A DNA stretch of 64,000 nt from Parcubacteria group bacterium Gr01-1014_8 (GTDB lineage: Bacteria; Patescibacteriota; Minisyncoccia; Phycocordibacterales; UBA2100). The position numbers and the translations under genes were made by a program. The notes beneath the pieces were generated by a model. It made no database searches. It was not told where the DNA came from and saw nothing but the letters and a program-made list of their open reading frames with translations. How positions within the stretch are numbered: the first letter of the stretch is position 1; every line of letters begins with the position of its first letter. Of the stretch, positions 45,708 to 57,458 are shown in pieces. The stretch is from NCBI GenBank assembly GCA_007376385.1, contig VMGC01000003.1, forward strand, positions 64,001-128,000. The letters are read 5' to 3'.

Positions 45708-46316
45708 TTAGCCTCGGATCTCAACCAGCGTGCCGGGCCTTCCTGGCACGGCACCTGAGATAACAAGAGTATTGGATCCAGCATCAACCTGCAAAACACG
45801 CAGATTCCTCACGGTTATTCGATCGCCTCCCATGCGGCCGGCCATTCGCATCCCTTTCACCACGCGTCCGCCGGCACGACCGCCGCCTCCGATTGAACCC
45901 GGAGAACGCTCTTTGTTTTTTTGACCGTGCGAGCGAGGGCCTCCCTTAAAACCGTGCCTCTTCACGACACCTTGAAAACCCTTTCCTTTTGATATCGCGG
46001 ACACTTCAACAATATCGCCCGGTGCAAACACTGAGACATTTATTGTCGCGCCCCTTTCCATTGTTTCCGCTCCTTTAAATTCTCGGGCGTATCGGAAATT
46101 TCCGAGATCTTTGAAGTGCCCTTGTACCGCCTTGCTCAGATTCTTCTGTTTCCGGTCGCCGAAGCCAAATTGCACGGCCGCGTAGCCATCCTTTTCAACA
46201 CTTTTAGCCTGAGTCACTGTGAGTGGCCCAGCAGTAATGATGGTCGCAGCAGCAACTGCGCCATCTTCATTGAAGATCTGGGTCATTCGACCCTTAGTTC
46301 CGAGCATGAATTTCAT
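45708..46316 (-). CDS. rplC: 50S ribosomal protein L3
   Basis: Family similarity. First gene of the cluster. Confidence 0.9.
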   Translation of the reverse strand: MKFMLGTKGRMTQIFNEDGAVAAATIITAGPLTVTQAKSVEKDGYAAVQFGFGDRKQKNLSKAVQGHFKDLGNFRYAREFKGAETMERGATINVSVFAPGDIVEVSAISKGKGFQGVVKRHGFKGGPRSHGQKNKERSPGSIGGGGRAGGRVVKGMRMAGRMGGDRITVRNLRVLQVDAGSNTLVISGAVPGRPGTLVEIRG

Positions 46317-46420
46317 GTTAGAGATTCTTAGCGAGTTACTACGAGCTTAGAAGCTCTTACACCCTGTTAAATGCAACTCTTCCGAGGTTGCCCCGCCTCT
46401 GGCGGGATTTAACAGGGTTG
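46317..46420 (-). repeat. structured leader element, copy C (5' leader of rplC)
   Basis: Outer stem CCCTGTTAAAT/ATTTAACAGGG. Its inner hairpin 2 uses a different but still complementary sequence (GCAAC/GTTGC) from copy B (ACGACC/GGTCGT). Confidence 0.6.
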
Positions 46421-46466
46421 TGAAAACTATAGTCGTCCTCGCTTCGCTTCGACCCCTTAGTTTTCA

Positions 46467-46497
46467 ACAAAAAACCGCGCCACTGGCGCGGATGGTT
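46467..46497 (-). terminator. rho-independent terminator upstream of the rplC leader
   Basis: Sense strand ccgcgccagtggcgcgg followed by TTTTTTG. It ends transcription from the accessory genes upstream. Confidence 0.6.
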
Positions 46498-46672
46498 CAT
46501 CCGAGTCCAGTGGTCCCGTATTGGGACATGGGTGACCCGTGAGATGGCGGCCTTGCGGCCTATCTCATGGGTTCGCGGCACTATACACCCCATGAGATAA
46601 CAAGTCAAAAACTTCTCGTACAGAACAGATTTTCTATCTCACGGGGTACACGAGGAGTGTACGGGATGCAAA

Positions 46673-47107
46673 CTAACTTGTTGCAGGGGGATTGTCGGCA
46701 GCGGACGCCAGCGAAGCGTTTTCCTTTCTGTGATGAATATCGTAGAGATGTTTCAAGAGCACCATGGTAAGCGCCAACGAGACCAAAATGACGCCATATA
46801 ACGCAGGCATGGACAGCTGTCCTATCGGTCCTGCGGATGACTGGAAGCTGGAAGGAACAAACGTTTGTTCCGGAAGGAAATCTTCCGCGACTCCCTGTTT
46901 CTCTGCTTCGCCTGCAAGCGACTCAACTAAAACGGCAAGTTCGCTCTCAGATAGTTCGCTTGAACGCGGATCACTCAATAAAGATGCGCGTATTTCATCG
47001 CGAAGCAGTACTGAATCATCCGCTTGCGCAAAAACACTTATCGGGAGAACGAGCGCTCCTGCAAACAAAATCACTAGTGCAGTTTTTTTAATTGAATGCA
47101 CGTTCAT
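46673..47107 (-). CDS. hypothetical exported/membrane-anchored protein
   Basis: Signal peptide and C-terminal TM helix. No recognisable domain. Confidence 0.4.
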   Translation of the reverse strand: MNVHSIKKTALVILFAGALVLPISVFAQADDSVLLRDEIRASLLSDPRSSELSESELAVLVESLAGEAEKQGVAEDFLPEQTFVPSSFQSSAGPIGQLSMPALYGVILVSLALTMVLLKHLYDIHHRKENASLASAADNPPATS

Positions 47108-47111
47108 ACGT

Positions 47112-48134
47112 CTAGAGTTCTTGGAAAATCGGGATAATGTTCACCGTCGCGGTCGGCTTTGGCAGAAATACCCCGCCGCTCGACTTCGTGCAGGAGAGTG
47201 TGTAGGTGGTCTGCGTAGAAATAGCGCTTGAAGTCTGCGTCCCAGACGTGCCTGACCACGCATCGGTTATGTCGGGGTTATCCTCGGTGACTGTGCACGA
47301 TGTTATGCCGGAGCTAATCCAGCTAACCTCTGTGGTCTCGCCTGCTCTGATGAGTGATGGAGATACAGCGATGTCGGCCGCAGATGCGTCTCCTCCGCCA
47401 GAGAGACATGCGCCATTTGCACATCCATATGCGCACGCTTGTTCAAACTGATTCGAGCACGTAGGAGGGTTTACTCTTCTGTAGAGGTCATTGCCTACGC
47501 ACGTGAACTGCGGGCTGCATGCGGCATTAACAGTTACGGTTACATTACATGACCATGACTCCGTTTGTACCAAGGCATCCCCGCTCTGTACCGACGAACG
47601 CGTACCTGTAAGCGTGTAGGTCGTACTTTGTGTCGGTGTGACCGACCACGAACCTGCCCACGCAACACCGCCAGGCGTTGGCGAGAGCGTTCGGGTCCAT
47701 GGGTTAATGGGATCCGTTTCTGAACTCCACGAAAGATTGGATACTTGGCCGGATGCTACTGTTAACGGCGACGCATATATGACACATCCGGAGCTTGGCT
47801 GTATCGGCGTATCGCAATCGCCGCTCTGATGGGGATTTGACGGACATGAGGCGGGAACGATGCGTAACCCCGATCCGCTGTATTCCGTAAAACGAGTTTC
47901 TGAAGAAACTATGCCATCCTGCATTTGCAAAGCCCCGCTGAATTGAAAGACAGCTATCGAGAGCATACCGAACAATATTGCCCAATATGTGCGCGTAGAT
48001 ATGCCGCGCAAAATCTTCTCTGCAGAAAGCAACCGCATAACCCGTTCTGTACATTGTCCTATAGACACACGAGAGAAACAATGCGGTGCCTGTGCATAAT
48101 TGTCCGCATACCTTTTTACAATCTCCTTCCGCAC
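47112..48134 (-). CDS. cell-surface protein with repeated Ig-like (beta-sandwich) modules
   Basis: TM/signal near the N-terminus. Repeated Thr/Ser-rich modules (TYTLTG..., TYTLSC...). Start codon uncertain. Confidence 0.4.
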   Translation of the reverse strand: MRKEIVKRYADNYAQAPHCFSRVSIGQCTERVMRLLSAEKILRGISTRTYWAILFGMLSIAVFQFSGALQMQDGIVSSETRFTEYSGSGLRIVPASCPSNPHQSGDCDTPIQPSSGCVIYASPLTVASGQVSNLSWSSETDPINPWTRTLSPTPGGVAWAGSWSVTPTQSTTYTLTGTRSSVQSGDALVQTESWSCNVTVTVNAACSPQFTCVGNDLYRRVNPPTCSNQFEQACAYGCANGACLSGGGDASAADIAVSPSLIRAGETTEVSWISSGITSCTVTEDNPDITDAWSGTSGTQTSSAISTQTTYTLSCTKSSGGVFLPKPTATVNIIPIFQEL

Positions 48135-48982
48135 ATGGCCCGGGAAACAACGTCTGTTTTGGAGACATCCATAATGGAACCAGTCTGTATACTGCGCATA
48201 TTCTCCCGCAGAGAATCCTGCAATGCGTATACGCCCTCCGGTGCAATACGGGGATCATTTCCAGGATAGGCTGTCAGCCAATCTTTTTCTGTGATGGCCA
48301 TCGCCGCTTTCACTGCATCCCGCGCTTTCTTCAGGGCAGCTTCCTTTTCGCCAAGTTCAAACAGCGCGATCGAATGCGAACTAAGAAGCCAGGGATTTTC
48401 CGGAAAAAGCTGGAGGCCATGTTCCGTCGCCGCACGTGCGTCGCGAGGGCAATTGCTTTTAAGCAGGACCCACGCGTAATCATTTAATCCAGCCCAATTT
48501 GACGGCTCCCGAGACAAGTAGAGTTCGTAATCTCTCGCGGCAGCCTCATAATCAGTCATGAAACCCTCGATAAGGCCTCGCACGTAATAGGAATTCGCCT
48601 GTGCATCGCCGTGCTCGGAGATCTCGATAGTTATGTGAGCCAGCGCGGTTGCAAAATCACTTCTCAAAAAATAGATCCGTGCAAGTTCGTGATGCACGTA
48701 TGGAAAATGGGGCATGATAAAGGCGGCTTTTTTCAGATACGTCTCGGCTTTTTTAATGCTGTATGCATCGTCGCGTGTATTGAGAAAATACGAACCCATT
48801 TCATACAGAAGTTTCGGGTCATTAGGTGCGAGCATTCGTGCAGACTCAAGATGGATGCCCTCCCACAGCGCGTGCGCGAGAGCCGTGCGATAAAAGAAGA
48901 TGAGCCCCGCAACAAACAACACCGACAAGGACGCGGCGACGATCAGCTTTGCCGATCTTGCCTTCCACATGCCGTGCATCAC
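48116..48982 (-). CDS. membrane-anchored TPR-repeat protein
   Basis: N-terminal TM and several TPR-like helical repeats. Confidence 0.5.
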   Translation of the reverse strand: MMHGMWKARSAKLIVAASLSVLFVAGLIFFYRTALAHALWEGIHLESARMLAPNDPKLLYEMGSYFLNTRDDAYSIKKAETYLKKAAFIMPHFPYVHHELARIYFLRSDFATALAHITIEISEHGDAQANSYYVRGLIEGFMTDYEAAARDYELYLSREPSNWAGLNDYAWVLLKSNCPRDARAATEHGLQLFPENPWLLSSHSIALFELGEKEAALKKARDAVKAAMAITEKDWLTAYPGNDPRIAPEGVYALQDSLRENMRSIQTGSIMDVSKTDVVSRAMCGRRL

Positions 48983-50121
48983 TTGCTTATCTCACCGTAT
49001 TTTATGAGAAACTCCTTGAAGTTCGGATTGAGTTCTGAGAGGTCAATGTAGCCTTTGTAGTAGCGCTCCCAATCAGCCTTTGAGCGCGCTCCCCCCTCGC
49101 GCAAAAAAGCAAGATAGTAGCCCTGGTGGACTGCTGGATCCTTCTCGACGAGCGTCATGAGCGCATTCAGATACTTGTTGATCTCGGCTTTTGCGTCCGT
49201 ACCCTGCACATCGTACAGCGCAAGTGCATAGTTGAAATATGTATACGGAAGACGCGACGCGATAAGCGGAATGGGGGCTCCTTTCTCATCCCGCGTGGTC
49301 TCATTCAATTTCACCAATGCATCCAAGGCTATTTTAGCGTCCTCAAGATACTCCGGCTGTACCCTCGCCATCACTCCATAGAGATATGATTTCCAAAAGA
49401 GGAACCGGGGCTCAACCATATACTCGAACGGCCTTCCCTCGACGGTCTTCAATTCTTGGGGAAGCAAGGCATCCGCAGATGCTATGACCTTCGCTATTTC
49501 CCCCGCGTATTCCTTTTTTTGAGCTGGCGTCGCGTTCCAGTCTCCATATAAATTCCGGATCCTGTCCGTATACCACTGACCTATGCGAAATTGAGCCTCC
49601 GTTGTCGGATACAAGGATATGGAATATTCCGCAAGATTGCGTATCGAGGTAGCCGCGTCATCTTGGACAAGGAAACTTTGGAACGGTTCGCCGACAAATA
49701 CTTCATCAAATACGAATGGTTCAAATGCCGCGTTGATATAACCGAGTAATTTGTTCACCTGGAGAGCTTTCTCATAGTTTGTTTTGCTGAGCGTATAGGT
49801 CTCCTTTGTCAGCTGTACCGCTTCAATGCGCTTGCGAGCATCGCCGCTCATGAATTTACCGGTATCAACTACAGAACGCGCAACAAAATTTGGCTCCGAT
49901 GAACCCCGCATGACCAGCTCCGCCTGTGCGACCGCCTCATCAGATCTCCCCTGCGCTGCAAGATGCAAAGCAGTGTCCGTCATTTTCTTTTGTTCTTCTT
50001 CGCTTAAGCCGCCTCGCAATAAAAAAAGGTCCGGGCGAAAGACATACAAAGCCGCCGTCGAAAGAACTGCCGCAACAAGAAGTATAAGAACGATGATCCC
50101 CCGTATGTTTGTTCCAGTCAT
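48979..50121 (-). CDS. membrane-anchored hypothetical protein
   Basis: N-terminal TM followed by an alpha-rich soluble domain. Confidence 0.4.
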   Translation of the reverse strand: MTGTNIRGIIVLILLVAAVLSTAALYVFRPDLFLLRGGLSEEEQKKMTDTALHLAAQGRSDEAVAQAELVMRGSSEPNFVARSVVDTGKFMSGDARKRIEAVQLTKETYTLSKTNYEKALQVNKLLGYINAAFEPFVFDEVFVGEPFQSFLVQDDAATSIRNLAEYSISLYPTTEAQFRIGQWYTDRIRNLYGDWNATPAQKKEYAGEIAKVIASADALLPQELKTVEGRPFEYMVEPRFLFWKSYLYGVMARVQPEYLEDAKIALDALVKLNETTRDEKGAPIPLIASRLPYTYFNYALALYDVQGTDAKAEINKYLNALMTLVEKDPAVHQGYYLAFLREGGARSKADWERYYKGYIDLSELNPNFKEFLIKYGEISK

Positions 50122-50126
50122 AGAGA

Positions 50127-50453
50127 TTATTTTCCCCCGCTGCCTCCGCTTCCTCCGGCACAGCCATCACAACAATCACCTGCGCCAGCGTCACCTGCAT
50201 CACCTGCATCACCTGCGCAGCCTCCACACCCACCGTCGCTGCAACCATCCGACGTGCAACTCGAACAACTCGAACAACTGCCCGGGGCATCGGCGCGCGC
50301 CACATCAGAATTTCCTAAAACTCGCTCGCCGCCTCCCCCTCCAAATACGCGCGGCGCAATGACAGTAAGAAGCACGATGACAGCACCGAGGAACAGTAAC
50401 CCCGCATTCCGGATCGCCTTATATCCTCGCTGGGAGATGCGTACAATAGCCAT
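50127..50453 (-). CDS. candidate RiPP precursor: TM/leader region plus Gly/Ser/Cys-rich core (microcin-B17-like composition)
   Basis: C-terminus GSCSSCSSCTSDGCSDGGCGGCAGDAGDAGDAGAGDCCDGCAGGSGGSGGK. A TGaTATACT extended -10 sits 6 nt upstream of the ATG (leaderless-like). 9-nt tandem repeats occur in the core coding region. Confidence 0.45.
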   Translation of the reverse strand: MAIVRISQRGYKAIRNAGLLFLGAVIVLLTVIAPRVFGGGGGERVLGNSDVARADAPGSCSSCSSCTSDGCSDGGCGGCAGDAGDAGDAGAGDCCDGCAGGSGGSGGK

Positions 50454-50527
50454 AGCGAAAGTATATCAGTACACAGCACAATATCCGCGCCTTATGTGGA
50501 TATGTACTTCCACCCTATCTCGCCCTG

Positions 50528-51721
50528 CTATTTTTGTATCCAATCATTGGTTTGAAAGATCGAAAAATCCAAAGCGCATACATTCGCTGTCTCGATAACC
50601 CGATGCAGAGGCTCGTGCGCAAACGATAGATCGAGCGACCAGAAGATTTCCCGTATGGGCGGCTCGCCCCGGCACAGCGCTTTGAGTTCGAACCAGCGTG
50701 TATACGGGCTACAGCGACAAGGACGATTTTGCCATGCACCTTTTATAACCTTCTCGGTCCCGTCCTCGTACCGTACCGTCGCAAGCGATACGCCGCTCGT
50801 GGCCGGAAAGTAAGTCGCAATGCCGAGATGAGGCCTCGCAAATGTAAAACTTCGGCTATGGAGCGCAAAGATGATCCATGCGTGCATCATCAATAGACCT
50901 AGACAGATGATGGCCATGCGCCATATGTAGGTGCCACTGGGTTTTTTTGCAGGCACGTCGAACCAAAAAAGCGCGGGCAAGATCGGCACGATAAGCAACA
51001 TGTAGTATTGTTCAAAGACAACGCCTGCATACACATGGAACGCTACAAAGACGCTCAGTACGCCTCTGCGATACCGCGCGTCTTTAGAAAGGAGGTACCA
51101 CACGCCGATCCACTGCAGAGCAAACGCTCCATGTACGAACCATAATTCGACGCCTGCAGGAATGAGCGGCATATCCTTCGGCAGGCCATCCAAGATATAC
51201 GCGCGATAAAATTCTGTGACACCGCCAAGTACATACAGAAAGACAACAAGAGCACGCGCTGTCCATTCCTTGCATGCGGCAAATAACAGCACCGCTGACA
51301 GCAGGAGGTGCAGGTATGAGTACGCTTCGCCGGCTTCATATGAGAGAACGAGGAGAAAAAAAGCTTCCCACAACCAAGTCAGAAGAAAGATGCCGTGTGC
51401 CGCGAGCCATCGACCCCTGATCGCCGCAAATAAAGCAACCGTTTGCAGAATGAACAGGAAGCCATACAGCGCCGTCTGCGAATAACCGTATTGTTTTAAA
51501 TTTAGGAAATACCATTCACCGCATTGCTGAAAAAACGGCCAGCATGTATACACGTTGCTTTGGTATGCCTGAACGGTGCCCGCATCATCGCCGACAAACG
51601 TTGCGAAGAGGAACATCTGATACGCGAGCGCAATGAAAAATAAGATGCGCGCGTTTTCGGAAGGCAAAAATTCGCTCAAAGAGAAAAACTTCTGGTAGGA
51701 ATCACGGAGGCGCTCCAACAT
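50528..51721 (-). CDS. polytopic membrane protein (possibly HTTM/SdpB-like)
   Basis: About 8 TM helices with no soluble domain. The family assignment is tentative. Confidence 0.35.
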   Translation of the reverse strand: MLERLRDSYQKFFSLSEFLPSENARILFFIALAYQMFLFATFVGDDAGTVQAYQSNVYTCWPFFQQCGEWYFLNLKQYGYSQTALYGFLFILQTVALFAAIRGRWLAAHGIFLLTWLWEAFFLLVLSYEAGEAYSYLHLLLSAVLLFAACKEWTARALVVFLYVLGGVTEFYRAYILDGLPKDMPLIPAGVELWFVHGAFALQWIGVWYLLSKDARYRRGVLSVFVAFHVYAGVVFEQYYMLLIVPILPALFWFDVPAKKPSGTYIWRMAIICLGLLMMHAWIIFALHSRSFTFARPHLGIATYFPATSGVSLATVRYEDGTEKVIKGAWQNRPCRCSPYTRWFELKALCRGEPPIREIFWSLDLSFAHEPLHRVIETANVCALDFSIFQTNDWIQK

Positions 51722-51788
51722 GCATGAACTATATCATGCAGTATCTTTTGCAGATGAAAAAAAGGATGTACCATTCTGTTGTACATTC

Positions 51789-53429
51789 ATGTCATCACCC
51801 TATGCAGACATATTGCGGAATGCGATAGAAAAACGAGTCTTCGTGAAAGCCAAGAACCCCGGTGATATCGTTTCATTGGATGGCACACATTCGCTGCCCT
51901 GGATATTCGATTTTCGTGCGGCAATGTGTGATTCGGAGCATTTGAATGCATTTGCAGAGCTTTTTTGGGAGCGATCCGAAAATGAATATCCATTTCAGGT
52001 CTGCGGAATGGAAACCGCAGGCATCGCACTCGTTGCCGCTATCTGCATGAAGGGCCACGAACGAAATAAGCCGGTGAATGGCCTCTATGTCAGAAAATCA
52101 AGGAAAAAATACGGGTTGATGAAGGCATTTGAAGGAACCCCGACAAAAGATCCTGTGATATTTGTCGACGACCTTATTAACACGGGCCAGTCGGTGCAAA
52201 AAGTCCTCGCGGTATTGCATGATGAGGGATTGACCCTTCGTTCCGTATTCACCATCCTCGGCGTACGGTCTCTTGATGAGTATGCTTTTCTCGATAAAGC
52301 AGGCATCACGTATAGCATGCTCTTTCTATCCGAAGAATTCGGCGTACCTTTGGTAAAAAGTCAAACGCCGATACGGTACGATGAATTCGATGTGCTGTGG
52401 ACATTCAAAAGCGGGTCGCCAAGCTACCAGCATGTGGTCCCTAAATCCGCCCCGGCTCTTGATGCCTCCCACGTATACTTCGGCTCCGATGACGGAATAC
52501 TGCACGCACTTGACCAGAAAACCGGGGCAGAGCTCTGGAAATATCGTATCGGGATGTTCCCTTTCGGCAAAGGGATATTTTCAACTCCCGCAGTCGCGAA
52601 CAAAACCGTATATTTCGGAGCGTATGATGGAAATATGTACGCACTTGCTTCGGATACCGGAAAACGCCGCTGGGTGTACCGAGACGCGGATTGGATAGGC
52701 TCGTCGCCCGCAGTTGCGCCGGACCTAGGATTGCTCTACATCGGCCTTGAATTTGGGCTCTTCAACAAGAGAGGCGGCATTGCGGCACTTTCCCTGGATA
52801 CAGGAGAAGAAAAATGGGCTATGCGCTCAATGAATGGACTCACGCACTGCTCTCCCCTGTATATGAAGGAGGAGCGGGCAGTCGTTATCGGCAGCAATGA
52901 CGGATCAGTGTATTGTTTTGATGCACATTCCGGAAATGAGCAGTGGACGTACAAGACGAACGGAAGCGTCAAATCATCGTTCGCATATGACGCGAAGCGC
53001 CGGCTCGTCATATTTGGTTCTTTCGACGGCAATGTGTACGCGCTCCGTGCAAAGGACGGCAAGCCTGTCTGGCACTTCGATATCGGCGAAGCCATCTTTT
53101 CGACTCCGTGTCTTCTCGGTGATTATGCATACATGCCGTCTCTGAATAAATACCTGTTTGCGCTCTCGCTGGATTCCGGCGAAGAGAAGTGGCGTTTTCA
53201 AATGAGAGGCAGGATATTTTCCTCGCCCGTGATCGCAGATAATTCTCTTTGGATAGGCTCCAACGACGGCCGGCTTTGCGAACTTGATCCAGCGACTGGG
53301 ACAGTGCGCTCTTTCTTCCAGACAAGCGAACGTATTGTAAACGCAGTCGCCTATAATGCGGCATCGAAAACTTTTTTCGTGCCTACACAGGCAAATGAAC
53401 TCTACAGTATCAAGAGAAAAAACTCATAA
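51789..53429 (+). CDS. fusion of a type-I phosphoribosyltransferase-like domain with a PQQ-type beta-propeller
   Basis: PRPP-binding motif VIFVDDLINTGQSV (OPRTase-like) at the N-terminus. Six to eight PQQ/BamB-like repeats (G.DG.lyAld..tG...W) follow. Confidence 0.6.
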   Translation: MSSPYADILRNAIEKRVFVKAKNPGDIVSLDGTHSLPWIFDFRAAMCDSEHLNAFAELFWERSENEYPFQVCGMETAGIALVAAICMKGHERNKPVNGLYVRKSRKKYGLMKAFEGTPTKDPVIFVDDLINTGQSVQKVLAVLHDEGLTLRSVFTILGVRSLDEYAFLDKAGITYSMLFLSEEFGVPLVKSQTPIRYDEFDVLWTFKSGSPSYQHVVPKSAPALDASHVYFGSDDGILHALDQKTGAELWKYRIGMFPFGKGIFSTPAVANKTVYFGAYDGNMYALASDTGKRRWVYRDADWIGSSPAVAPDLGLLYIGLEFGLFNKRGGIAALSLDTGEEKWAMRSMNGLTHCSPLYMKEERAVVIGSNDGSVYCFDAHSGNEQWTYKTNGSVKSSFAYDAKRRLVIFGSFDGNVYALRAKDGKPVWHFDIGEAIFSTPCLLGDYAYMPSLNKYLFALSLDSGEEKWRFQMRGRIFSSPVIADNSLWIGSNDGRLCELDPATGTVRSFFQTSERIVNAVAYNAASKTFFVPTQANELYSIKRKNS

Positions 53430-53474
53430 AAAAACGGCGTCGCCCTCTATGACACACAGTGTTATCCTACGACC

Positions 53475-54902
53475 ATGCTGCAAGATGTGGTGCCGTTCAA
53501 GGAATTTGCATCCAAAAAATTCCCCGGTATTGTAGGCCGCGCGATACTGCAATTCATAGGTGTTTTGGAAAAAGCACTCGGCATCAGAACAGTGATAGAC
53601 GCTGATGAAGTTCCGTACGGAAAAACAGAGCTCTCCGACCTCTTTTTTATTGCTTCATCTTTGAAGAAAGTCGGGACGCTGACCTCATATTCTCAAAGCA
53701 TTGCGCCGCCGGATGAGCCACGTATCTTCAAATGGCAGGCACGTTACGGAACGGAAAATGCGGGCGGCATGTCTGCGCACTCCGACAGGAATGCCCTCAC
53801 AGCGGCACTCGCAGAATGCGTTGAGCGAAAAATATGGGCCGATAAAACAGATTTTTTTAAGAAACCTTTTACCGCCTCAACCTCGGAAATGAAAGATACT
53901 GCGCATATTTCCCCCGAACGATTCGCCGGCCTTACGGAAAAGCAGCGCACAGAAAAAGATTTTTTGAAGATGCAACCTATCAATACATATCTTTGGATAC
54001 GCGGATACTCTCTCGTTCAAAACAAGCCCATATACATCCCTGCACAGATCGTAAGTAGAGTTCACGGCATTGCGATAAAAAAGAACAAATCCGAGCCGCT
54101 GCTCCGACCGATAATTACAACAGGACTCGCAACGGGACAGACGCGCAAAAATGCGCTCCTGTCCGGGGCACTGGAAGTCATCGAACGCGATGCTTTCATG
54201 GTAACGTGGCTTAACCAGATAACACCCTCCCATATTTCAACGGATGAATTGCTCAAGAGTGAGACGTTAGATGCTCTCCTTTCAAAGTGTAAACGATACC
54301 GGCTTGATGTGGATTTCGTGCGGCTCATGACTGACGCACCAACGTATGTCATCGGTGCAGTCGTTTCTGACGGCGCGAATATGCCACCTATTGCAATCGG
54401 CATGTCCGCGCACCAAGACGCATCGCGTGCCGCCGAAAAAGCACTTTTAGAGGCGCTGCGTGCGCGCGTCAACACGCGAAATCGCTTAGAAAAATTCCGC
54501 GAACGAGCATATAAACCTGTCGAAACTATTTCTCAAGGGGAGCGCTCAATGTATTGGGCTGTTGACGACCGTTCAAAACAACTGTCATTTTTAACTGCTG
54601 GTCCTCTGCAAGCACTGGATGACGAAGCGTGGGACGATGACACCACTGAAGAACATCTGGAGAGGATAATCGAGTGGTGCAGAAAAAAGAAATACGAACT
54701 CGCGGAAATAGACATGACAAACTCTGCTGCAAATACGACTCCGTGGTGCGTAACATTCGTCGTGATACCGGAAATGCAGCCGTTGCATCAGAACGAAGAT
54801 CTGCCTTGTATCGGCGGCGCACGCTTGAAAGACATACCTAAACAATTCAGACACGAACCTCGCGCGGAACCATTCGTCGCAGCACCGCATCCATTCGTAT
54901 AA
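53475..54902 (+). CDS. YcaO-domain protein (RiPP cyclodehydratase/amide-activating enzyme)
   Basis: YcaO signature GMSAH...AECVERK and TTGLATGQTRKNALLSGALEVIERDAF. C-terminal ELAEIDMTN...PWCVTFVVIPEM. Confidence 0.8.
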   Translation: MLQDVVPFKEFASKKFPGIVGRAILQFIGVLEKALGIRTVIDADEVPYGKTELSDLFFIASSLKKVGTLTSYSQSIAPPDEPRIFKWQARYGTENAGGMSAHSDRNALTAALAECVERKIWADKTDFFKKPFTASTSEMKDTAHISPERFAGLTEKQRTEKDFLKMQPINTYLWIRGYSLVQNKPIYIPAQIVSRVHGIAIKKNKSEPLLRPIITTGLATGQTRKNALLSGALEVIERDAFMVTWLNQITPSHISTDELLKSETLDALLSKCKRYRLDVDFVRLMTDAPTYVIGAVVSDGANMPPIAIGMSAHQDASRAAEKALLEALRARVNTRNRLEKFRERAYKPVETISQGERSMYWAVDDRSKQLSFLTAGPLQALDDEAWDDDTTEEHLERIIEWCRKKKYELAEIDMTNSAANTTPWCVTFVVIPEMQPLHQNEDLPCIGGARLKDIPKQFRHEPRAEPFVAAPHPFV

Positions 54903-54904
54903 CT

Positions 54905-55633
54905 ATGTCTCTACTTTCACTTACACGACTGCACACATATTTGCGCAGCAGTCGTATCAGAAATAAGCCGGAAAATCCATCGCCGATAACTGCAACAGCA
55001 GTATCTTCAAAAAAATACCCTCGAATGCCGCAAATCGAGCTACCGAATGCGGATACTTCGACGATAACACTCGCCGAAGCAATGCATTCACGAATATCTC
55101 AACACGCGTTCGAAGAACAGCCGCTATCGATCGCATCATTATCACAGATACTCAAGAACTCGGCGTTCTCAGAAAACGCATCCCATCGTCCCTACCCTTC
55201 TGGCGGCGCCCTATTTCCAATCGAGATATATCTGCTCGTTCGTGATGTTGAGTCGCTTTCTCCTGGTATATATCACTATAGACCCGATGTTCACCGTCTC
55301 GAATTCTTGTGGGTACTTTCCGAAAATCTTGAACTGGACGTTACTTTCGACGCATGGGTAACGAGTGCTCCTGTTCTTATTGTGCTTACTGCACAATGGT
55401 CTCGGTCATGGAATAAATATAATGATTTCGGTCTCGAACTCTCTTTGCTTGAAGCAGGACACATCGGACAAAATATGCTCCTTTCAGCCGTCGCAACAAA
55501 TGCATGCGGATGTCCTTGGGGCGGATTTAATGAAAAAAATCTTGCAGATATTCTGGACCTCGATAATGAACGCGAACAAGTTGTTTACACGATCGCTCTT
55601 GGTCCGAGTATTTCAAAAGCTTCGCCGAATTAA
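54905..55633 (+). CDS. SagB-type (nitroreductase-fold) FMN dehydrogenase
   Basis: RPYPSGGALFPIEIY signature of TOMM B-type dehydrogenases. Its start sits 3 nt after the YcaO stop. Confidence 0.75.
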   Translation: MSLLSLTRLHTYLRSSRIRNKPENPSPITATAVSSKKYPRMPQIELPNADTSTITLAEAMHSRISQHAFEEQPLSIASLSQILKNSAFSENASHRPYPSGGALFPIEIYLLVRDVESLSPGIYHYRPDVHRLEFLWVLSENLELDVTFDAWVTSAPVLIVLTAQWSRSWNKYNDFGLELSLLEAGHIGQNMLLSAVATNACGCPWGGFNEKNLADILDLDNEREQVVYTIALGPSISKASPN

Positions 55634-55730
55634 CGCATGAATCGATCGGGACAGAGACGCTTTTCTCAAATCGAAAGGGCCCAGCGTTAGCCAAGCCCCT
55701 CCGCACTGCGTCTCCAGAGTAGTCCGAGGG

Positions 55731-55931
55731 CTAACGCTTCCAGCCCGCACAATACGACCCGCATCTCTTGCCCTTGTAGCAATTTCTGCAGATCGACATG
55801 CATGAGTTGTAATCGTGCGCCGTGGCACACGCCTGCGTGGTGCATGCAGGCATGACCGGGGTTGACCCCGTTACTCCAAGCAGCAGGGTTAAGGCCCCTG
55901 CCAAGCCCAAGAGAGTTTTCCTCGTAGTCAT
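55731..55931 (-). CDS. small secreted Cys-rich peptide (candidate bacteriocin or second precursor)
   Basis: 66 aa. Signal-peptide-like N-terminus, then PACTTQACATAHDYNSCMSICRNCYKGKRCGSYCAGWKR with 8 Cys. Strong RBS GGAAAGGAG 9 nt before the ATG. Confidence 0.55.
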   Translation of the reverse strand: MTTRKTLLGLAGALTLLLGVTGSTPVMPACTTQACATAHDYNSCMSICRNCYKGKRCGSYCAGWKR

Positions 55932-56180
55932 TTGCTTTCGCTCCTTTCCACTACATTGCCCCCTCGAAATATCCGTAGAAAAATGCGGACAATTCGAGAG
56001 AGCAATTTCAACTCCCCCGAAAGAACCGCGGCAAATTTCTTTGCCAGCCAGCGAGGATTATACCTCAAATAATATGATAAGTCAATCAAGCAATCCGACT
56101 TATCCACAGGGTGAAAAGCAAGAAATGAAGCCATTTTTGTGGTATGCATGCGCCTACGCTTCCCTATAGTTCGCATCAAC

Positions 56181-57458
56181 TCAAACGAGTGTCTCATCAA
56201 CAACGATCTGGCATTTTCCACGCGCTGTCGGCGGAATGTTCGCGACGAGTATTATTTTGACCGCAATAGAATTCCCAACTAACTCGCGAACGTTTGATTC
56301 GATTCTCTGTGTTGCATTGCCATCGAACAGAGCGCCCGGAACTATTCTCAATTCAAGTGCACCCTCGGCCGTTTTTGCGAACTGGTATTGGAACACGAGG
56401 TCCATGAACATATCCAGCGCTGCATCGAACTCCAGATGATGTATATCCCGCCCGCCGAAATTCAAGAACGCTGAATATCTTCCCTCGAACCATATTCTCG
56501 GAGTTTCAAGGCCGCATGTGCACCCCTCTAACGATATGACTCCGTGATCGCCTGTGTCATACCGAATGAACGGCATGTTGTAGTTCGTCAGGTCTGTCAG
56601 AATTACCCTTCCCCACTGCCCCGGGGGAAGTACTCTTCCTTCTTCGTCCACTATTTCCGCAATGATCGATTCGCTGTGCAGGTGCTGTCCATCGTGATAT
56701 GTGCATTCGCATGCCACAGCGGACATCTCTTCGATGCCGTACCGGTCATACACTTCGCTTTGCATTGCGGTTTCCAAAAATCCGCGCAGCGCGGGGGGAA
56801 GCATTTCGCCGAACGACACAATATATTTCGGCCGTATGCGGGGCAGAGAGAGGTCAGAGGACAATTTTTGCGCCAAAATAAACAGGATCGAAGTGTAACT
56901 CTCCAATACTTCCGGCTTGAATGACGCAAGCTTTCGTATCGCGTCTTCAGGATCGGACAAGAACTGTTTGACCGGCATAAAAAAACGGTAGCGCGAGGAG
57001 TTCGAACGTATCTTGATGCGGGCGACGCGAAGTTTTGAGAAGTCGAACATAAAAGCATGTTGCCAGGAAATGAATCTGAAACAGACCGATTCCAGATATC
57101 GCATATCAGTTGAATTGCGCCCGAATAAGAACGTGAACGGCTTCCCGCTCGTGCCCGACGTGTTATACCACCGTGAAAATATCTGCTGGCTGTTGTCGAT
57201 GAGCTCCTCACGCGGACGATCCAAAAAAGTTTCTTTTCGGGTTATCGGAAGCGAGGAGAGACCTTCCAAAGTGCGTATCTTTTCCGGCTCAATACCAGAA
57301 AGAGCATACAACTTTTTATACAAAGGTACGTTCGCCGCCGCATGCATGATGATCATCCGCAATCTTTTCTCCTGCCATCTTTGTATGGCCGAACGGGACC
57401 GACGATGCAAGAGATGAAAACGGAGATATTCGATGCTCTCGCGTATCTCATTGATCAT
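56181..57458 (-). CDS. PaaK/CapK/F390-synthetase-like adenylate-forming enzyme 1
   Basis: YNTSGTSGKPFTF (P-loop-like) and RYDTGD motifs of the phenylacetate-CoA ligase family. Confidence 0.7.
   Translation of the reverse strand: MINEIRESIEYLRFHLLHRRSRSAIQRWQEKRLRMIIMHAAANVPLYKKLYALSGIEPEKIRTLEGLSSLPITRKETFLDRPREELIDNSQQIFSRWYNTSGTSGKPFTFLFGRNSTDMRYLESVCFRFISWQHAFMFDFSKLRVARIKIRSNSSRYRFFMPVKQFLSDPEDAIRKLASFKPEVLESYTSILFILAQKLSSDLSLPRIRPKYIVSFGEMLPPALRGFLETAMQSEVYDRYGIEEMSAVACECTYHDGQHLHSESIIAEIVDEEGRVLPPGQWGRVILTDLTNYNMPFIRYDTGDHGVISLEGCTCGLETPRIWFEGRYSAFLNFGGRDIHHLEFDAALDMFMDLVFQYQFAKTAEGALELRIVPGALFDGNATQRIESNVRELVGNSIAVKIILVANIPPTARGKCQIVVDETLV

What the first reader, a model, noticed from the sequence alone, without database searches (positions are those of the whole stretch)
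55731..55931. Secreted 8-Cys peptide with a strong RBS directly downstream of the YcaO/SagB pair
A 66-aa ORF has a Sec-type signal sequence (MTTRKTLLGLAGALTLLLGVTG) and a mature region with 8 Cys plus Thr/Ser (PACTTQACATAHDYNSCMSICRNCYKGKRCGSYCAGWKR). It has one of the best RBS in the window (GGAAAGGAG, 9-nt spacing). It sits on the opposite strand 98 bp after the SagB-type gene and downstream of the two PaaK-like genes. It could be a disulfide-rich bacteriocin, or a second substrate for Cys-to-thiazole chemistry.
Basis: seen in the sequence. Interest (0 to 1): 0.65.

Follow-up and report, generated by a model that had tools for sequence, protein, structure and literature searches.

The report
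Secreted six-cysteine peptide beside azole cluster
This is a real but unannotated small gene for an exported, positively charged, cysteine-braced mini-protein; it and unrelated look-alikes repeatedly sit at the tail end of an azole-peptide gene cluster in ultra-small groundwater bacteria, but it is probably not a substrate of that cluster's enzymes and its function is unknown.

Summary
The 66-aa ORF at 55731..55931 (-) exists as described, except that it has 7 Cys, not 8. Six of them are invariant in relatives. It is a real gene. It has its own near-consensus promoter, the best Shine-Dalgarno among the 40 long ORFs surveyed, and a 3' hairpin. Three syntenic orthologues lie in other Parcubacteria/CPR clusters, between the SagB gene and the CapK/PaaK-like pair. 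A fifth member lies on a mobile-element-like contig with no YcaO gene in the 12.5 kb read. All five carry a Sec-type signal, are cationic (+5 to +9) and share C-x8-C-x3-C-x2-C-x4/5-C-x3-C. dN/dS between two orthologues is 0.125. AlphaFold predicts three short helices.

The conserved substrate of the YcaO/SagB pair is a different gene, at 50127..50453 (-). It has a strongly conserved leader that pep66 lacks. The "second thiazole substrate" reading is therefore not supported, while the "secreted disulfide-rich peptide" reading is. Antimicrobial activity is untested, and no immunity gene is adjacent.

One result is new. In at least 22-25 of 61 related CPR operons, a small secreted Cys-rich ORF from one of several unrelated families occupies the same slot. 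That slot lies at the 3' end of the YcaO-SagB(-PRT/PQQ) operon, usually on the opposite strand (binomial p about 1e-9).

The parts
56057..56085 (-). Promoter of pep66: -35 TTGACT (56085..56080), 17-nt spacer, -10 TATAAT (56062..56057)
   Evidence: scores it 11 of 12. One search finds only 4 sites scoring at least 10/12 on both strands of the whole window. The orthologues in L162, L164 and L169 have TTGACT-16-TATAGT at the same place, directly after the CapK1 stop.
55932..56052 (-). Structured 5' leader, about 120 nt. It contains a 5'-terminal hairpin (56046..56029) and a long hairpin (56005..55956). An upstream CGGUUCUUUCG (56028..56018) is predicted to pair with the Shine-Dalgarno.
   Evidence: MFE -48.1 kcal/mol, z = -4.6, and 0 of 200 shuffles fold as well. 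One search finds no Rfam family. This rests on a single-sequence prediction; the orthologues have a shorter, different leader.
55941..55949 (-). Shine-Dalgarno GGAAAGGAG, 9 nt upstream of the ATG
   Evidence: The 6-nt core AAGGAG is longer than in any of 40 long ORFs of the window, using the first start codon of each as a guess.
55731..55931 (-). pep66 coding sequence (66 codons plus TAG)
   Evidence: The gene is not called in the public records of this contig.
55866..55931 (-). Sec-type signal peptide, residues 1-22 (MTTRKTLLGLAGALTLLLGVTG). The cleavage site is uncertain: VTG/S, TGS/T, MPA/C or PAC/T, i.e. residues 22-30.
   Evidence: The sequence shows it directly, and heuristic hydrophobicity scans agree. 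All four relatives start with a signal peptide ending in ANA/S, ASA/S or AEA/Q. No dedicated predictor was available.
55734..55865 (-). Mature region (residues 23-66). It has 7 Cys, six of them invariant (35, 44, 48, 51, 57, 61), in the pattern C-x8-C-x3-C-x2-C-x5-C-x3-C. Net charge is +5 and pI about 9.
   Evidence: AlphaFold predicts helices at residues 27-37, 41-52 and 57-63, with pLDDT 80-89 in the core.
55672..55703 (-). 3' hairpin: a 14-bp stem (with G-U pairs) and a UAAC loop, followed by AUUUG. It starts 28 nt after the stop codon, in the 97-nt gap shared with the convergent SagB gene.
   Evidence: One search gives the fold and the coordinates. The U-tail is weak. The orthologues have a much clearer intrinsic terminator, CCCCCGTCC...GGGCGGGGGTTTT.
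54905..55633 (+). Context: SagB-type dehydrogenase, last gene of the convergent PRT/PQQ-YcaO-SagB operon (51720..55633)
   Evidence: PF00881; TIGR03605, 123.7 bits against a cut-off of 78.4.
56181..58822 (-). Context: two paralogous CapK/PaaK-like adenylate-forming genes (57455..58822 and 56181..57458), immediately upstream of pep66 on the same strand
   Evidence: The orthologous pairs (46-60% identity) precede the pep66 orthologues in L162 and L164, and the same gene order holds in L169.
50127..50453 (-). Context: the conserved azole-peptide precursor of the cluster (108 aa). It has a hydrophobic N-terminal helix, PRVF and ARADAP motifs, and a Cys/Gly/Ser/Asp-rich core ending in GGK. This is the likely true YcaO/SagB substrate.

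Best explanation
pep66 is a real small gene that forms its own transcription unit, with a strong sigma-70-type promoter, a structured leader, a strong Shine-Dalgarno and a 3' hairpin.

Mechanism, step by step:
- Export. The pre-peptide is exported by the Sec pathway and its signal peptide is removed somewhere between residues 22 and 30.
- Folding. The cationic mature peptide of about 36-44 residues folds into three short helices. These are cross-braced by up to three disulfides formed by the six invariant Cys. The core is a twin C-x3-C helical hairpin (C44-x3-C48 ... C57-x3-C61).
- Site of action. It acts outside the cell as a stable peptide. YcaO/SagB do not modify it.
- Genomic setting. It belongs to a small, previously undescribed family with five distinct members. 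It is one occupant of a recurrent slot at the 3' end of CPR azole-peptide (LAP) operons. That slot holds diverse small secreted Cys-rich peptides.
- Role. My best guess is an antagonistic or host-interaction effector, i.e. an unmodified Sec-dependent bacteriocin-like peptide deployed alongside the LAP island.

What is shown and what is inferred:
- Shown: the gene is real, conserved and under purifying selection, and its position is conserved.
- Strongly inferred: export.
- Inferred: the disulfide-braced helical fold.
- Speculative: the antimicrobial or effector role (about 0.35 on its own).
For: Gene reality:
- An exhaustive HMMER search with the mature 44 aa alone finds P0122, with E = 1.1e-4 against 1.84e9 proteins. 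The pairwise E-value is 3e-13.
- Syntenic orthologues exist in L162, L164 (= L165, L166) and L169. Pairwise E-values are 4e-8 and 7e-10.
- A family HMM hits only these members among 35,706 six-frame segments, all with E <= 4e-18; the next best hit has E = 0.009.
- 10 of 17 identical residues use different codons.
- dN/dS is 0.125 for L162 vs L164.

Transcription unit:
- Promoter and Shine-Dalgarno.
- The orthologues keep their own promoter and a strong terminator.

Export:
- All five members begin with a signal peptide, although the signal sequence was not in the search query.
- None has a twin-arginine motif.

Fold:
- Six Cys are invariant, together with Y/F41, G54 and Y60.
- AlphaFold gives three helices with core pLDDT 80-89.
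- All members are cationic, +5 to +9.

Not a YcaO substrate:
- The conserved precursor g108 and its orthologues share a leader (PRVF ... ADAP) and a CC..GGK tail that are absent from pep66.
- P0122 lies in a mobile-element-like context with no YcaO, SagB or CapK in the 12.5 kb held.

The slot:
- 11 of 19 candidate secreted Cys-rich ORFs lie within 200 bp of the module genes, a zone that holds 6% of the non-module sequence. The binomial p is 1.6e-9. Fisher's test against Cys-poor small secreted ORFs gives p = 1e-5.
- At least 22 of 61 operons are occupied, 20 of them on the opposite strand. Three more occupied operons were missed by the script.
- The closest YcaO relative, L160, has the same gene order but a different 4-Cys secreted peptide in the slot.
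Against: - No immunity, transporter or processing gene lies next to pep66: the 249 nt up to CapK1 are promoter and leader. This is atypical for Sec-dependent bacteriocins.
- The codon-usage score is intermediate. It is below 99.5% of in-frame chunks of long genes, though above 93% of off-frame chunks.
- The structure models rest on a 2-sequence alignment (mean pLDDT 67-74). Fold searches gave only generic three-helix matches.
- A disulfide-forming system in this organism was not looked for.
- pep66 has a seventh, non-conserved Cys (C30), which would stay unpaired if it is retained after cleavage.
- The tight and recurrent linkage to the LAP operon and the CapK pair suggests a functional coupling that a free-standing effector model does not explain.
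- No expression data were available.
Confidence: 0.55

Rival explanations
1. pep66 is a second precursor peptide of the azole (LAP/TOMM) pathway. Its Cys, Ser and Thr residues are cyclodehydrated by YcaO and oxidised by SagB before export.
For: - It lies 97 nt from the SagB gene, and orthologues keep that position.
- The slot peptides are statistically tied to the YcaO-SagB operon.
- The accepted precursor of this family also starts with a hydrophobic, signal-anchor-like helix, so an N-terminal hydrophobic segment does not by itself exclude modification.
- The mature part has 7 Cys and 8 Ser/Thr.
Against: - It has no trace of the leader motifs (PRVF, A(N/R/H)ADAP) or of the Gly/Ser/Asp-rich core and CC..GGK tail that are conserved in the real precursors.
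- P0122 keeps all six Cys with no YcaO or SagB in the 12.5 kb read around it.
- Conservation falls on the Cys plus aromatic and hydrophobic helix positions, not on Ser, Thr or Gly.
- A confident helical fold is predicted.
- It has its own promoter and terminator on the opposite strand.
- The slot peptides of other loci belong to unrelated families with no shared leader.
Confidence: 0.08
2. The exported peptide keeps its thiols reduced and binds metal, such as Cu(I) or Zn, on Cys-lined helices. It would be part of a metal-handling function of the whole island, whose Cys/Asp/Gly-rich azole peptide could be a metallophore.
For: - C-x3-C pairs sit on predicted helices.
- P0122 gives a weak, sub-threshold match to a 4Fe-4S dicluster model (E = 0.0057, 17.3 bits against a cut-off of 27).
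- The neighbouring genes g480 and g929 and the precursor are also Cys-rich, and g480 and g929 are His-rich as well.
- From my own knowledge: Csp copper-storage proteins line helices with Cys.
Against: - No significant match to any metal-binding family.
- The family is strongly cationic.
- Sec export, with no twin-arginine motif, delivers unfolded chains into an oxidising exterior where disulfides are the default.
- No metal transporter was recognised among the cluster genes scanned.
Confidence: 0.1
3. pep66 is a membrane-anchored lipoprotein. Cys30 is lipidated after cleavage at MPA/C, and the nearby gene with an Lnt-like domain (g929) N-acylates it.
For: - Removing or lipidating C30 would leave exactly six Cys.
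- g929 (60031..62820) has an apolipoprotein N-acyltransferase-like domain, with E = 1.5e-25 but below the family cut-off. An LNT_N/CN_hydrolase gene is also near the cluster in L167.
Against: - The sequence before C30 (V-M-P-A-C) has Pro at -2, which the usual lipobox pattern [LVI][ASTVI][GAS]C does not allow (my knowledge of the PROSITE PS51257 rule).
- C30 lies 10 residues after the end of the hydrophobic region.
- None of the four relatives has a Cys at this position.
Confidence: 0.04
4. The ORF is not translated. The region is only a promoter plus a structured RNA, or a chance ORF.
For: - The codon-usage score is atypical.
- Gene callers did not call it.
- The leader is unusually structured.
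Against: - Conservation is at the protein level, across 30-40% identity, with all six Cys aligned.
- Many identical residues use synonymous codons.
- dN/dS is 0.125.
- The Shine-Dalgarno is strong.
- No RNA family matches.
Confidence: 0.03

Closest known systems
Sec-dependent, unmodified (class II) bacteriocins, e.g. enterocin P, lactococcin 972 and enterocin Gr17 (PMC6700250; the other examples are from my own knowledge)
   Same: A small gene with its own promoter. A classical Sec signal peptide instead of a double-glycine leader. A short cationic mature peptide that contains disulfide(s), is unmodified and acts outside the cell.
   Different: No sequence similarity to any of them (no Pfam or NCBIfam hit). 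No adjacent immunity gene. It has six or seven Cys rather than two to four, and is all-helical. The producer is a CPR bacterium. Activity is untested.
Plant alpha-hairpinins (motif C1-X3-C2-X4-20-C3-X3-C4, helix-loop-helix with two disulfides; a 6C variant also exists) (PMC11591084)
   Same: A twin C-x3-C arrangement (C44-x3-C48 ... C57-x3-C61) on two predicted antiparallel helices. Small, cationic and secreted. The Cys are almost the only conserved residues. The B4 slot family (L013, L118, L026, L027) comes close to the 6C motif.
   Different: No homology; the resemblance is at most convergent. The loop of pep66 contains a Cys (C51), which the strict motif excludes. There is an extra N-terminal helix carrying C35. 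The family is bacterial and processed from a Sec pre-peptide, not from a modular plant precursor.
Linear azole-containing peptide (LAP/TOMM) precursors of CPR bacteria (Sharrar et al. 2020, PMC7298704)
   Same: Encoded next to a YcaO + nitroreductase/SagB pair in a Parcubacteria genome. Cys/Ser/Thr-containing C-terminal part.
   Different: It lacks the conserved leader and the Gly/Ser/Asp-rich core of the family's real precursor (g108 and its orthologues). It is on the opposite strand with its own promoter. One homologue has no YcaO gene within the 12.5 kb read around it.
Other small secreted Cys-rich peptides in the same slot of related CPR clusters (families seen here: B1 C-x8-C-x2-CC...C-x3-C; B4 C-x3-C-x3-C-x8-C-x3-C-x5-C; B5 AEARC-x3-C-x3-C-x13-15-C..W)
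   Same: Same position (3' end of the YcaO-SagB(-PRT/PQQ) operon, mostly convergent). Signal peptide, 4-12 Cys and frequent C-x3-C pairs. A marginal profile-profile match to B4 over the twin C-x3-C core (hhalign probability 58%).
   Different: No significant pairwise similarity, and different Cys numbers and spacings. These families are undescribed, so they give no functional information.

Membership tests
LAP/TOMM precursor peptide of this YcaO/SagB family | Shares the leader recognised by the modifying enzymes. Here the leader is conserved across loci: M.IVR..RG(F/Y)K..RN ... PRVF ... A(N/R/H)ADAP. | tested here: not met
   the motifs are present in g108 and its orthologues in L160, L162, L164 and L167, and absent from pep66 and its orthologues.
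LAP/TOMM precursor peptide of this YcaO/SagB family | A core rich in Cys/Ser/Thr embedded in small residues (Gly/Ser/Asp), without a conserved folded-domain signature. | tested here: not met
   pep66 has 3 Gly in 44 residues. The conserved positions are six Cys plus Y/F41, G54 and Y60. A helical fold is predicted with core pLDDT 80-89.
LAP/TOMM precursor peptide of this YcaO/SagB family | Co-occurs obligatorily with the YcaO cyclodehydratase. | tested here: not met
   Four of five members sit beside YcaO/SagB. P0122 lies on a contig with relaxase- and coupling-protein-like genes and no YcaO, SagB or CapK within 10 kb upstream and 2.3 kb downstream.
LAP/TOMM precursor peptide of this YcaO/SagB family | Azol(in)e rings present in the mature product. 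| not testable with these tools
   Requires mass spectrometry of the native or co-expressed peptide.
Sec-dependent class II bacteriocins | N-terminal Sec signal peptide with a signal-peptidase I site. | tested here: met
   Heuristic only. n-, h- and c-regions are present in all five members, and the relatives have AXA sites (ANA/S, ASA/S, AEA/Q). No SignalP-type predictor was available.
Sec-dependent class II bacteriocins | Cognate immunity gene next to the structural gene. | tested here: not met
   No ORF with support lies between SagB, pep66 and CapK1. The orthologous slots (about 380 bp in L162-type loci) hold only the peptide gene. P0122 is flanked by two Imm_superinfect-family genes, which have no counterpart in the window.
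Sec-dependent class II bacteriocins | Sequence membership in a described bacteriocin family. | tested here: not met
   No Pfam or NCBIfam family, no significant PDB sequence match, and no hit in the plasmid or phage collections.
Sec-dependent class II bacteriocins | Antimicrobial activity of the mature peptide. | not testable with these tools
   Needs a synthetic or recombinant peptide and indicator strains.
Alpha-hairpinin-like twin C-x3-C helical hairpins (a structural class, not homology) | C1-X3-C2-X4-20-C3-X3-C4, where X is non-Cys. | tested here: inconclusive
   C44-x3-C48-x8-C57-x3-C61 fits the spacing in all members (x7 or x8). However, the loop contains the invariant C51, which the strict motif excludes (motif from PMC11591084).
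Alpha-hairpinin-like twin C-x3-C helical hairpins (a structural class, not homology) | Helix-loop-helix fold with ladder disulfides C1-C4 and C2-C3. | tested here: inconclusive
   AlphaFold places C44/C48 and C57/C61 on consecutive helices. Fold searches were non-specific.
Bacterial lipoprotein | Lipobox [LVI][ASTVI][GAS]C directly after the h-region. | tested here: not met
   The sequence before C30 is V-M-P-A-C, with Pro at -2 and 10 residues after the h-region. The Cys is absent from all relatives.
pep66 family itself (new; C-x8-C-x3-C-x2-C-x4/5-C-x3-C after a signal peptide) | Six aligned Cys, Y/F at -3 of the second Cys, a Gly after the fourth Cys, S/R-Y-C at the last Cys, a signal peptide, 66-80 aa, cationic. 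| tested here: met
   There are five distinct sequences: the window, L162, L164/L165/L166, L169 and P0122.

The most novel reading that the evidence does not exclude
The small secreted Cys-rich peptides are not bystanders. They would be a previously unrecognised, rapidly swapping component of the CPR azole-peptide island. That island is itself wedged between rpsJ and rplC of the ribosomal S10 operon in many of these genomes. The slot at the operon's 3' end would then hold interchangeable extracellular partners of the azole peptide or of the CapK-like enzymes, for example a second toxin, a delivery or receptor-binding subunit, or a self-protection factor. pep66 would be one such cassette, and one that has also travelled on a mobile element.
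Probability: 0.3. Interest if true: 0.65.

Novelty: new variant of a known kind. Interest (0 to 1): 0.45.

Why it matters
CPR/Patescibacteria are thought to live attached to other microbes, and very little is known about what they secrete. This analysis yields three things:
- a small, conserved, unannotated secreted peptide family with a defined Cys framework that could be synthesised and tested;
- a clear separation between the real azole-peptide precursor of the cluster and this neighbour, which matters to anyone mining these LAP clusters;
- a statistically supported, previously unreported positional link between LAP operons and diverse secreted Cys-rich peptides.

If that link is functional, the CPR azole-peptide system works with an exchangeable extracellular partner. 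The case also shows that standard gene callers often miss or mis-frame these genes. pep66 was not called at all, and the orthologues were called in the wrong frame in three of five contigs. Surveys based on predicted proteins will therefore under-count them.

Tried and rejected
Searches that found nothing or little:
- The word-index protein search with pep66, and later with pep66 + P0122, found nothing new.
- The exact-sequence look-up showed pep66 is not on record.
- Degenerate-pattern scans of metagenome and viral contigs with the two-sequence alignment gave no relative.
- tblastn against plasmids and phages gave nothing.
- tblastn of pep66 against the first 79 loci gave nothing. The orthologues appeared only after I fetched the contigs of YcaO homologues with the window's gene order.
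- Pfam and NCBIfam on pep66 and on eight other Cys-rich peptides (seven slot peptides plus P0122) gave only sub-threshold noise, such as Fer4_18 and Vanabin-2.
- Rfam found no family on the leader.

Ideas rejected:
- Codon usage as evidence for coding. The score is intermediate and uninformative for a Cys-rich signal-peptide protein.
- A peptide always following CapK1. This holds in the window-type loci, L160 and L015, but not in L083, L088, L035 or L096.
- A lipoprotein reading. The lipobox is not met and C30 is not conserved.
- A type I toxin reading, prompted by the structured leader with a sequestered Shine-Dalgarno. The conserved hydrophilic six-Cys domain and the cleavable signals of the relatives do not fit.
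- Identifying the organism of the P0122 contig. This was not possible (62.5% GC; only distant hits to conjugative coupling proteins).
Full report
WHAT IS THERE

The window is a contig of "Parcubacteria group bacterium Gr01-1014_8". Its YcaO protein is identical to the NCBI entry, and an identical ENA contig was recovered. It contains 7 cysteines (residues 30, 35, 44, 48, 51, 57, 61), not 8.

The position is as described:
- Its stop codon lies 97 nt from the stop of the SagB-type dehydrogenase gene (54905..55633 +), on the opposite strand.
- It lies 249 nt downstream of two paralogous CapK/PaaK-like adenylate-forming genes (57455..58822 and 56181..57458, -).

No public record calls this gene.

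IS IT A GENE?

An ORF of this size is not remarkable in itself. Its codon-usage score is only intermediate: below 99.5% of in-frame 66-codon chunks of long genes, and above 93% of off-frame chunks. Other evidence is decisive.

1. Own promoter. TTGACT-17-TATAAT lies at 56085..56057 (-) and scores 11/12. It is one of four sites scoring at least 10/12 on both strands of the 64-kb window.
2. Ribosome-binding site. The 6-nt Shine-Dalgarno core AAGGAG sits 9 nt before the ATG. This is longer than in any of 40 long ORFs surveyed, using the first start codon of each as a guess.
3. A distant homologue. An exhaustive HMMER search of 1.84 billion representative proteins, using only the mature 44 residues, returned one credible relative. 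P0122 is 76 aa, with E = 1.1e-4 for the whole library and a pairwise E of 3e-13. It also starts with a signal peptide and aligns all six Cys from C35 to C61.
4. Syntenic orthologues. I fetched contigs of YcaO homologues that share the window's gene order. They carry orthologues in exactly the same place, between SagB (+) and CapK1 (-), on the CapK strand:
   - L162 10152..10391, 79 aa;
   - L164 = L165 = L166 8150..8389, 79 aa;
   - L169 3459..3701, 80 aa.
   Pairwise E-values to pep66 and to P0122 are 4e-8 and 7e-10.
5. Family specificity. A family HMM finds only these five distinct sequences among 35,706 six-frame segments of all loci held, all with E <= 4e-18. The next best hit has E = 0.009.
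6. Selection acts on the protein. In the core aligned with P0122, 10 of 17 identical residues use different codons. dN/dS between L162 and L164 is 0.125. Against L169 it is 0.5-0.64.
7. The orthologues are also independent units. Each has its own TTGACT-16-TATAGT promoter directly after the CapK1 stop, an AAAGGGAG Shine-Dalgarno and a strong intrinsic terminator.

Gene callers called the 79-aa gene in L165 and L166. In L162, L164 and L169 they called a wrong-frame ORF instead.

ANATOMY

- Pattern. The family pattern is signal peptide, then a linker, then C-x8-C-x3-C-x2-C-x4/5-C-x3-C. Invariant positions are the six Cys, Y/F41, G54 and Y60. C30 of pep66 is unique to it.
- Signal peptide. The relatives have textbook AXA cleavage sites (ANA/S, ASA/S, AEA/Q). 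In pep66 the site is ambiguous, falling somewhere between residues 22 and 30.
- Charge. All mature parts are cationic, +5 to +9, with pI 9.0-9.75.
- Predicted fold. AlphaFold predicts three short helices (27-37, 41-52, 57-63) with pLDDT 80-89 in the core. It used only a two-sequence alignment.
- Helical hairpin. C44-x3-C48 and C57-x3-C61 form a twin C-x3-C pair on consecutive helices. The arrangement resembles plant alpha-hairpinins (motif in PMC11591084), but the loop contains the invariant C51 and there is no homology.
- 5' leader. The 121-nt leader (55932..56052) is predicted to be unusually stable: -48.1 kcal/mol, z = -4.6, with 0 of 200 shuffles folding as well. In the prediction the Shine-Dalgarno pairs with an upstream CGGUUCUUUCG. 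No Rfam family matches. The orthologues have a shorter, different leader. This remains a single-sequence prediction.
- 3' end. A 14-bp hairpin follows the stop codon (55703..55672).

RELATION TO THE YcaO/SagB PAIR

YcaO + nitroreductase (LAP) clusters are already known to be widespread in CPR genomes (Sharrar et al. 2020, PMC7298704). I collected 83 non-redundant loci of this YcaO family. They share a conserved module.

- A short precursor gene is transcribed divergently from YcaO. It is followed by three conserved genes of unknown function (g380, the TPR protein g288, and g340).
- On the other strand lie YcaO, SagB, a phosphoribosyltransferase-PQQ-propeller fusion (PRT/PQQ), and sometimes a polytopic membrane protein (g397).
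- In the window the precursor is the 108-aa gene at 50127..50453 (-).
- These precursors share a strongly conserved N-terminal part (M.IVR..RG(F/Y)K..RN, a hydrophobic helix, PRVF, A(N/R/H)ADAP), a Cys/Gly/Ser/Asp-rich core and a CC..GGK tail.

pep66 and its orthologues have none of these motifs. What they conserve looks like a folded mini-domain. One family member (P0122) lies on a 62.5% GC contig with relaxase- and coupling-protein-like genes, two Imm_superinfect-family genes, and no YcaO, SagB or CapK in the 12.5 kb held. I therefore consider the "second substrate for thiazole chemistry" reading unlikely (about 0.08). Only mass spectrometry can exclude it.

A RECURRENT SLOT

pep66 is not an isolated neighbour. 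I scanned the related loci for ORFs of 40-135 aa with a signal-peptide-like N-terminus and at least 4 Cys, excluding the precursors.

- 11 of 19 such ORFs lie within 200 bp of the YcaO/SagB/PRT-PQQ genes. That zone holds 6% of the non-module sequence. The binomial p is 1.6e-9. In comparison with Cys-poor small secreted ORFs, the Fisher odds ratio is 15 and p = 1e-5.
- At least 22 of 61 operons with enough downstream sequence carry one in or at the 3' end of the operon, 20 of them on the opposite strand. The script missed three more occupied operons: L160, L162 and L164.
- The occupants belong to several unrelated families.
- L160 has the closest YcaO (53% identity) and the same gene order as the window. 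It holds a different 4-Cys secreted peptide in the slot.
- A profile-profile comparison of the pep66 family with one of the other families (B4) gives a marginal match over the twin C-x3-C core (probability 58%).

The position is conserved while the occupant is exchangeable. This pattern is suggestive of accessory or conflict-related cargo, but it does not say what the peptides do.

MOST LIKELY MECHANISM

The sequence of events I propose is:
1. transcription from its own strong promoter;
2. Sec export and signal-peptide cleavage;
3. oxidative folding into a three-helix, disulfide-braced cationic mini-protein;
4. action outside the cell, without modification by YcaO/SagB.

I rate the gene as real and translated at about 0.95, exported at about 0.85, and a disulfide-braced helical fold at about 0.6. 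An antagonistic, bacteriocin-like or host-directed role is a guess, at about 0.35. The cationic charge, the stability-conferring Cys framework and the mobile-element copy speak for it. The lack of an adjacent immunity gene speaks against it.

RIVALS

- Azole substrate: 0.08.
- Reduced-thiol metal binder: 0.10.
- Lipoprotein through C30: 0.04. The lipobox is not met, and the Cys is not conserved.
- Not translated: 0.03.

NOVELTY AND VERDICT

- The LAP cluster itself is a known kind (PMC7298704).
- The pep66 family has no model in Pfam or NCBIfam and carries no name in the protein collections.
- As far as I could find, the link between LAP operon ends and secreted Cys-rich peptides has not been reported. 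I ran five literature searches. Only the first three bore on CPR clusters or their secreted peptides. None mentions such a link.

I score it as a new variant of a known kind with moderate interest. Its refutation test ("no conservation of the Cys pattern") comes out in favour of the gene. Its more exciting interpretation (thiazole substrate) is not supported.

Noticed in passing
window 46316..62868; also L019, L013, L003, L004, L089, L083, L161, L163: The whole island of about 16.5 kb is inserted between rplC (L3, 45708..46316 -) and rpsJ (S10, 62868..63239 -), which are normally adjacent in the S10 operon. The island comprises the precursor, g380/g288/g340, PRT-PQQ, YcaO, SagB, pep66, the CapK pair, g480 and g929. 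L3 or S10 genes also flank the cluster in many related CPR loci (gene tables). The placement is therefore conserved, and in several loci the slot peptide lies shortly downstream of rpsJ on the same strand.
   Followed up: partly
window 50127..50453 (-): This 108-aa gene is the conserved precursor of the YcaO/SagB family. It has a hydrophobic, signal-anchor-like N-terminal helix, PRVF and A(N/R/H)ADAP motifs, a Cys/Gly/Ser/Asp-rich core and a CC..GGK tail. A membrane-helix-like leader is unusual for an azole-peptide precursor.
   Followed up: partly
window 55932..56052 (-): The 5' leader of pep66 is predicted to fold far better than shuffled controls (-48.1 kcal/mol, z = -4.6), with the Shine-Dalgarno paired to an upstream complementary stretch. 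No Rfam family matches. It could be a translational control element, but it is not conserved in the orthologues' shorter leaders.
   Followed up: partly
window 58679..60121 (+) and 60031..62820 (+): Two neighbouring genes (g480, g929) share a Cys/His-rich domain with no Pfam match. g929 has an N-terminal apolipoprotein N-acyltransferase (Lnt)-like region (TIGR00546, E = 1.5e-25, below the cut-off). Relatives of both recur near the cluster in other loci.
   Followed up: no
window 51720..53429 (+): This gene fuses an orotate-phosphoribosyltransferase-like domain to a BamB/PQQ-type beta-propeller. It is conserved next to YcaO-SagB in most related loci, usually after SagB but before YcaO here. Its role in an azole-peptide pathway is unknown.
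   Followed up: no
window 56181..58822 (-); L011, L013, L015, L035, L083, L088, L096, L160-L164, L169: A pair of paralogous CapK/PaaK-like adenylate-forming enzymes, about 30% identical to each other and overlapping by 4 nt here, is a recurrent accessory of the cluster. The window's pair is 46-60% identical to the pairs in L162 and L164, which is more than the YcaO genes are (45%).
   Followed up: partly
L080 8798..10651: The only family member not seen next to a YcaO gene (P0122) sits between two near-identical copies of an Imm_superinfect-family (PF14373) small membrane-protein gene. The contig is 62.5% GC and also carries relaxase-like and type-IV coupling-protein-like genes.
   Followed up: partly
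L162 10294..10443; L164 8145..8441; L169 3399..3707: In these three contigs the public gene calls in the slot are wrong-frame ORFs (49, 98 and 102 aa). They overlap the conserved 79-80-aa peptide gene. pep66 itself is not called at all, and most other slot peptides are not in the 15-billion-protein collection with the sequence used here.
   Followed up: yes
L160 6924..7982 (+): The closest relative of the window's cluster has an extra 352-aa gene with no Pfam hit between YcaO and SagB. The window has no counterpart.
   Followed up: no
window 9716 (+) and 39850 (-): Two other near-consensus sigma-70-type promoter matches in the window: TTGACA-18-TATAAT (12/12) and TTGACA-17-TATATT (11/12).
   Followed up: no
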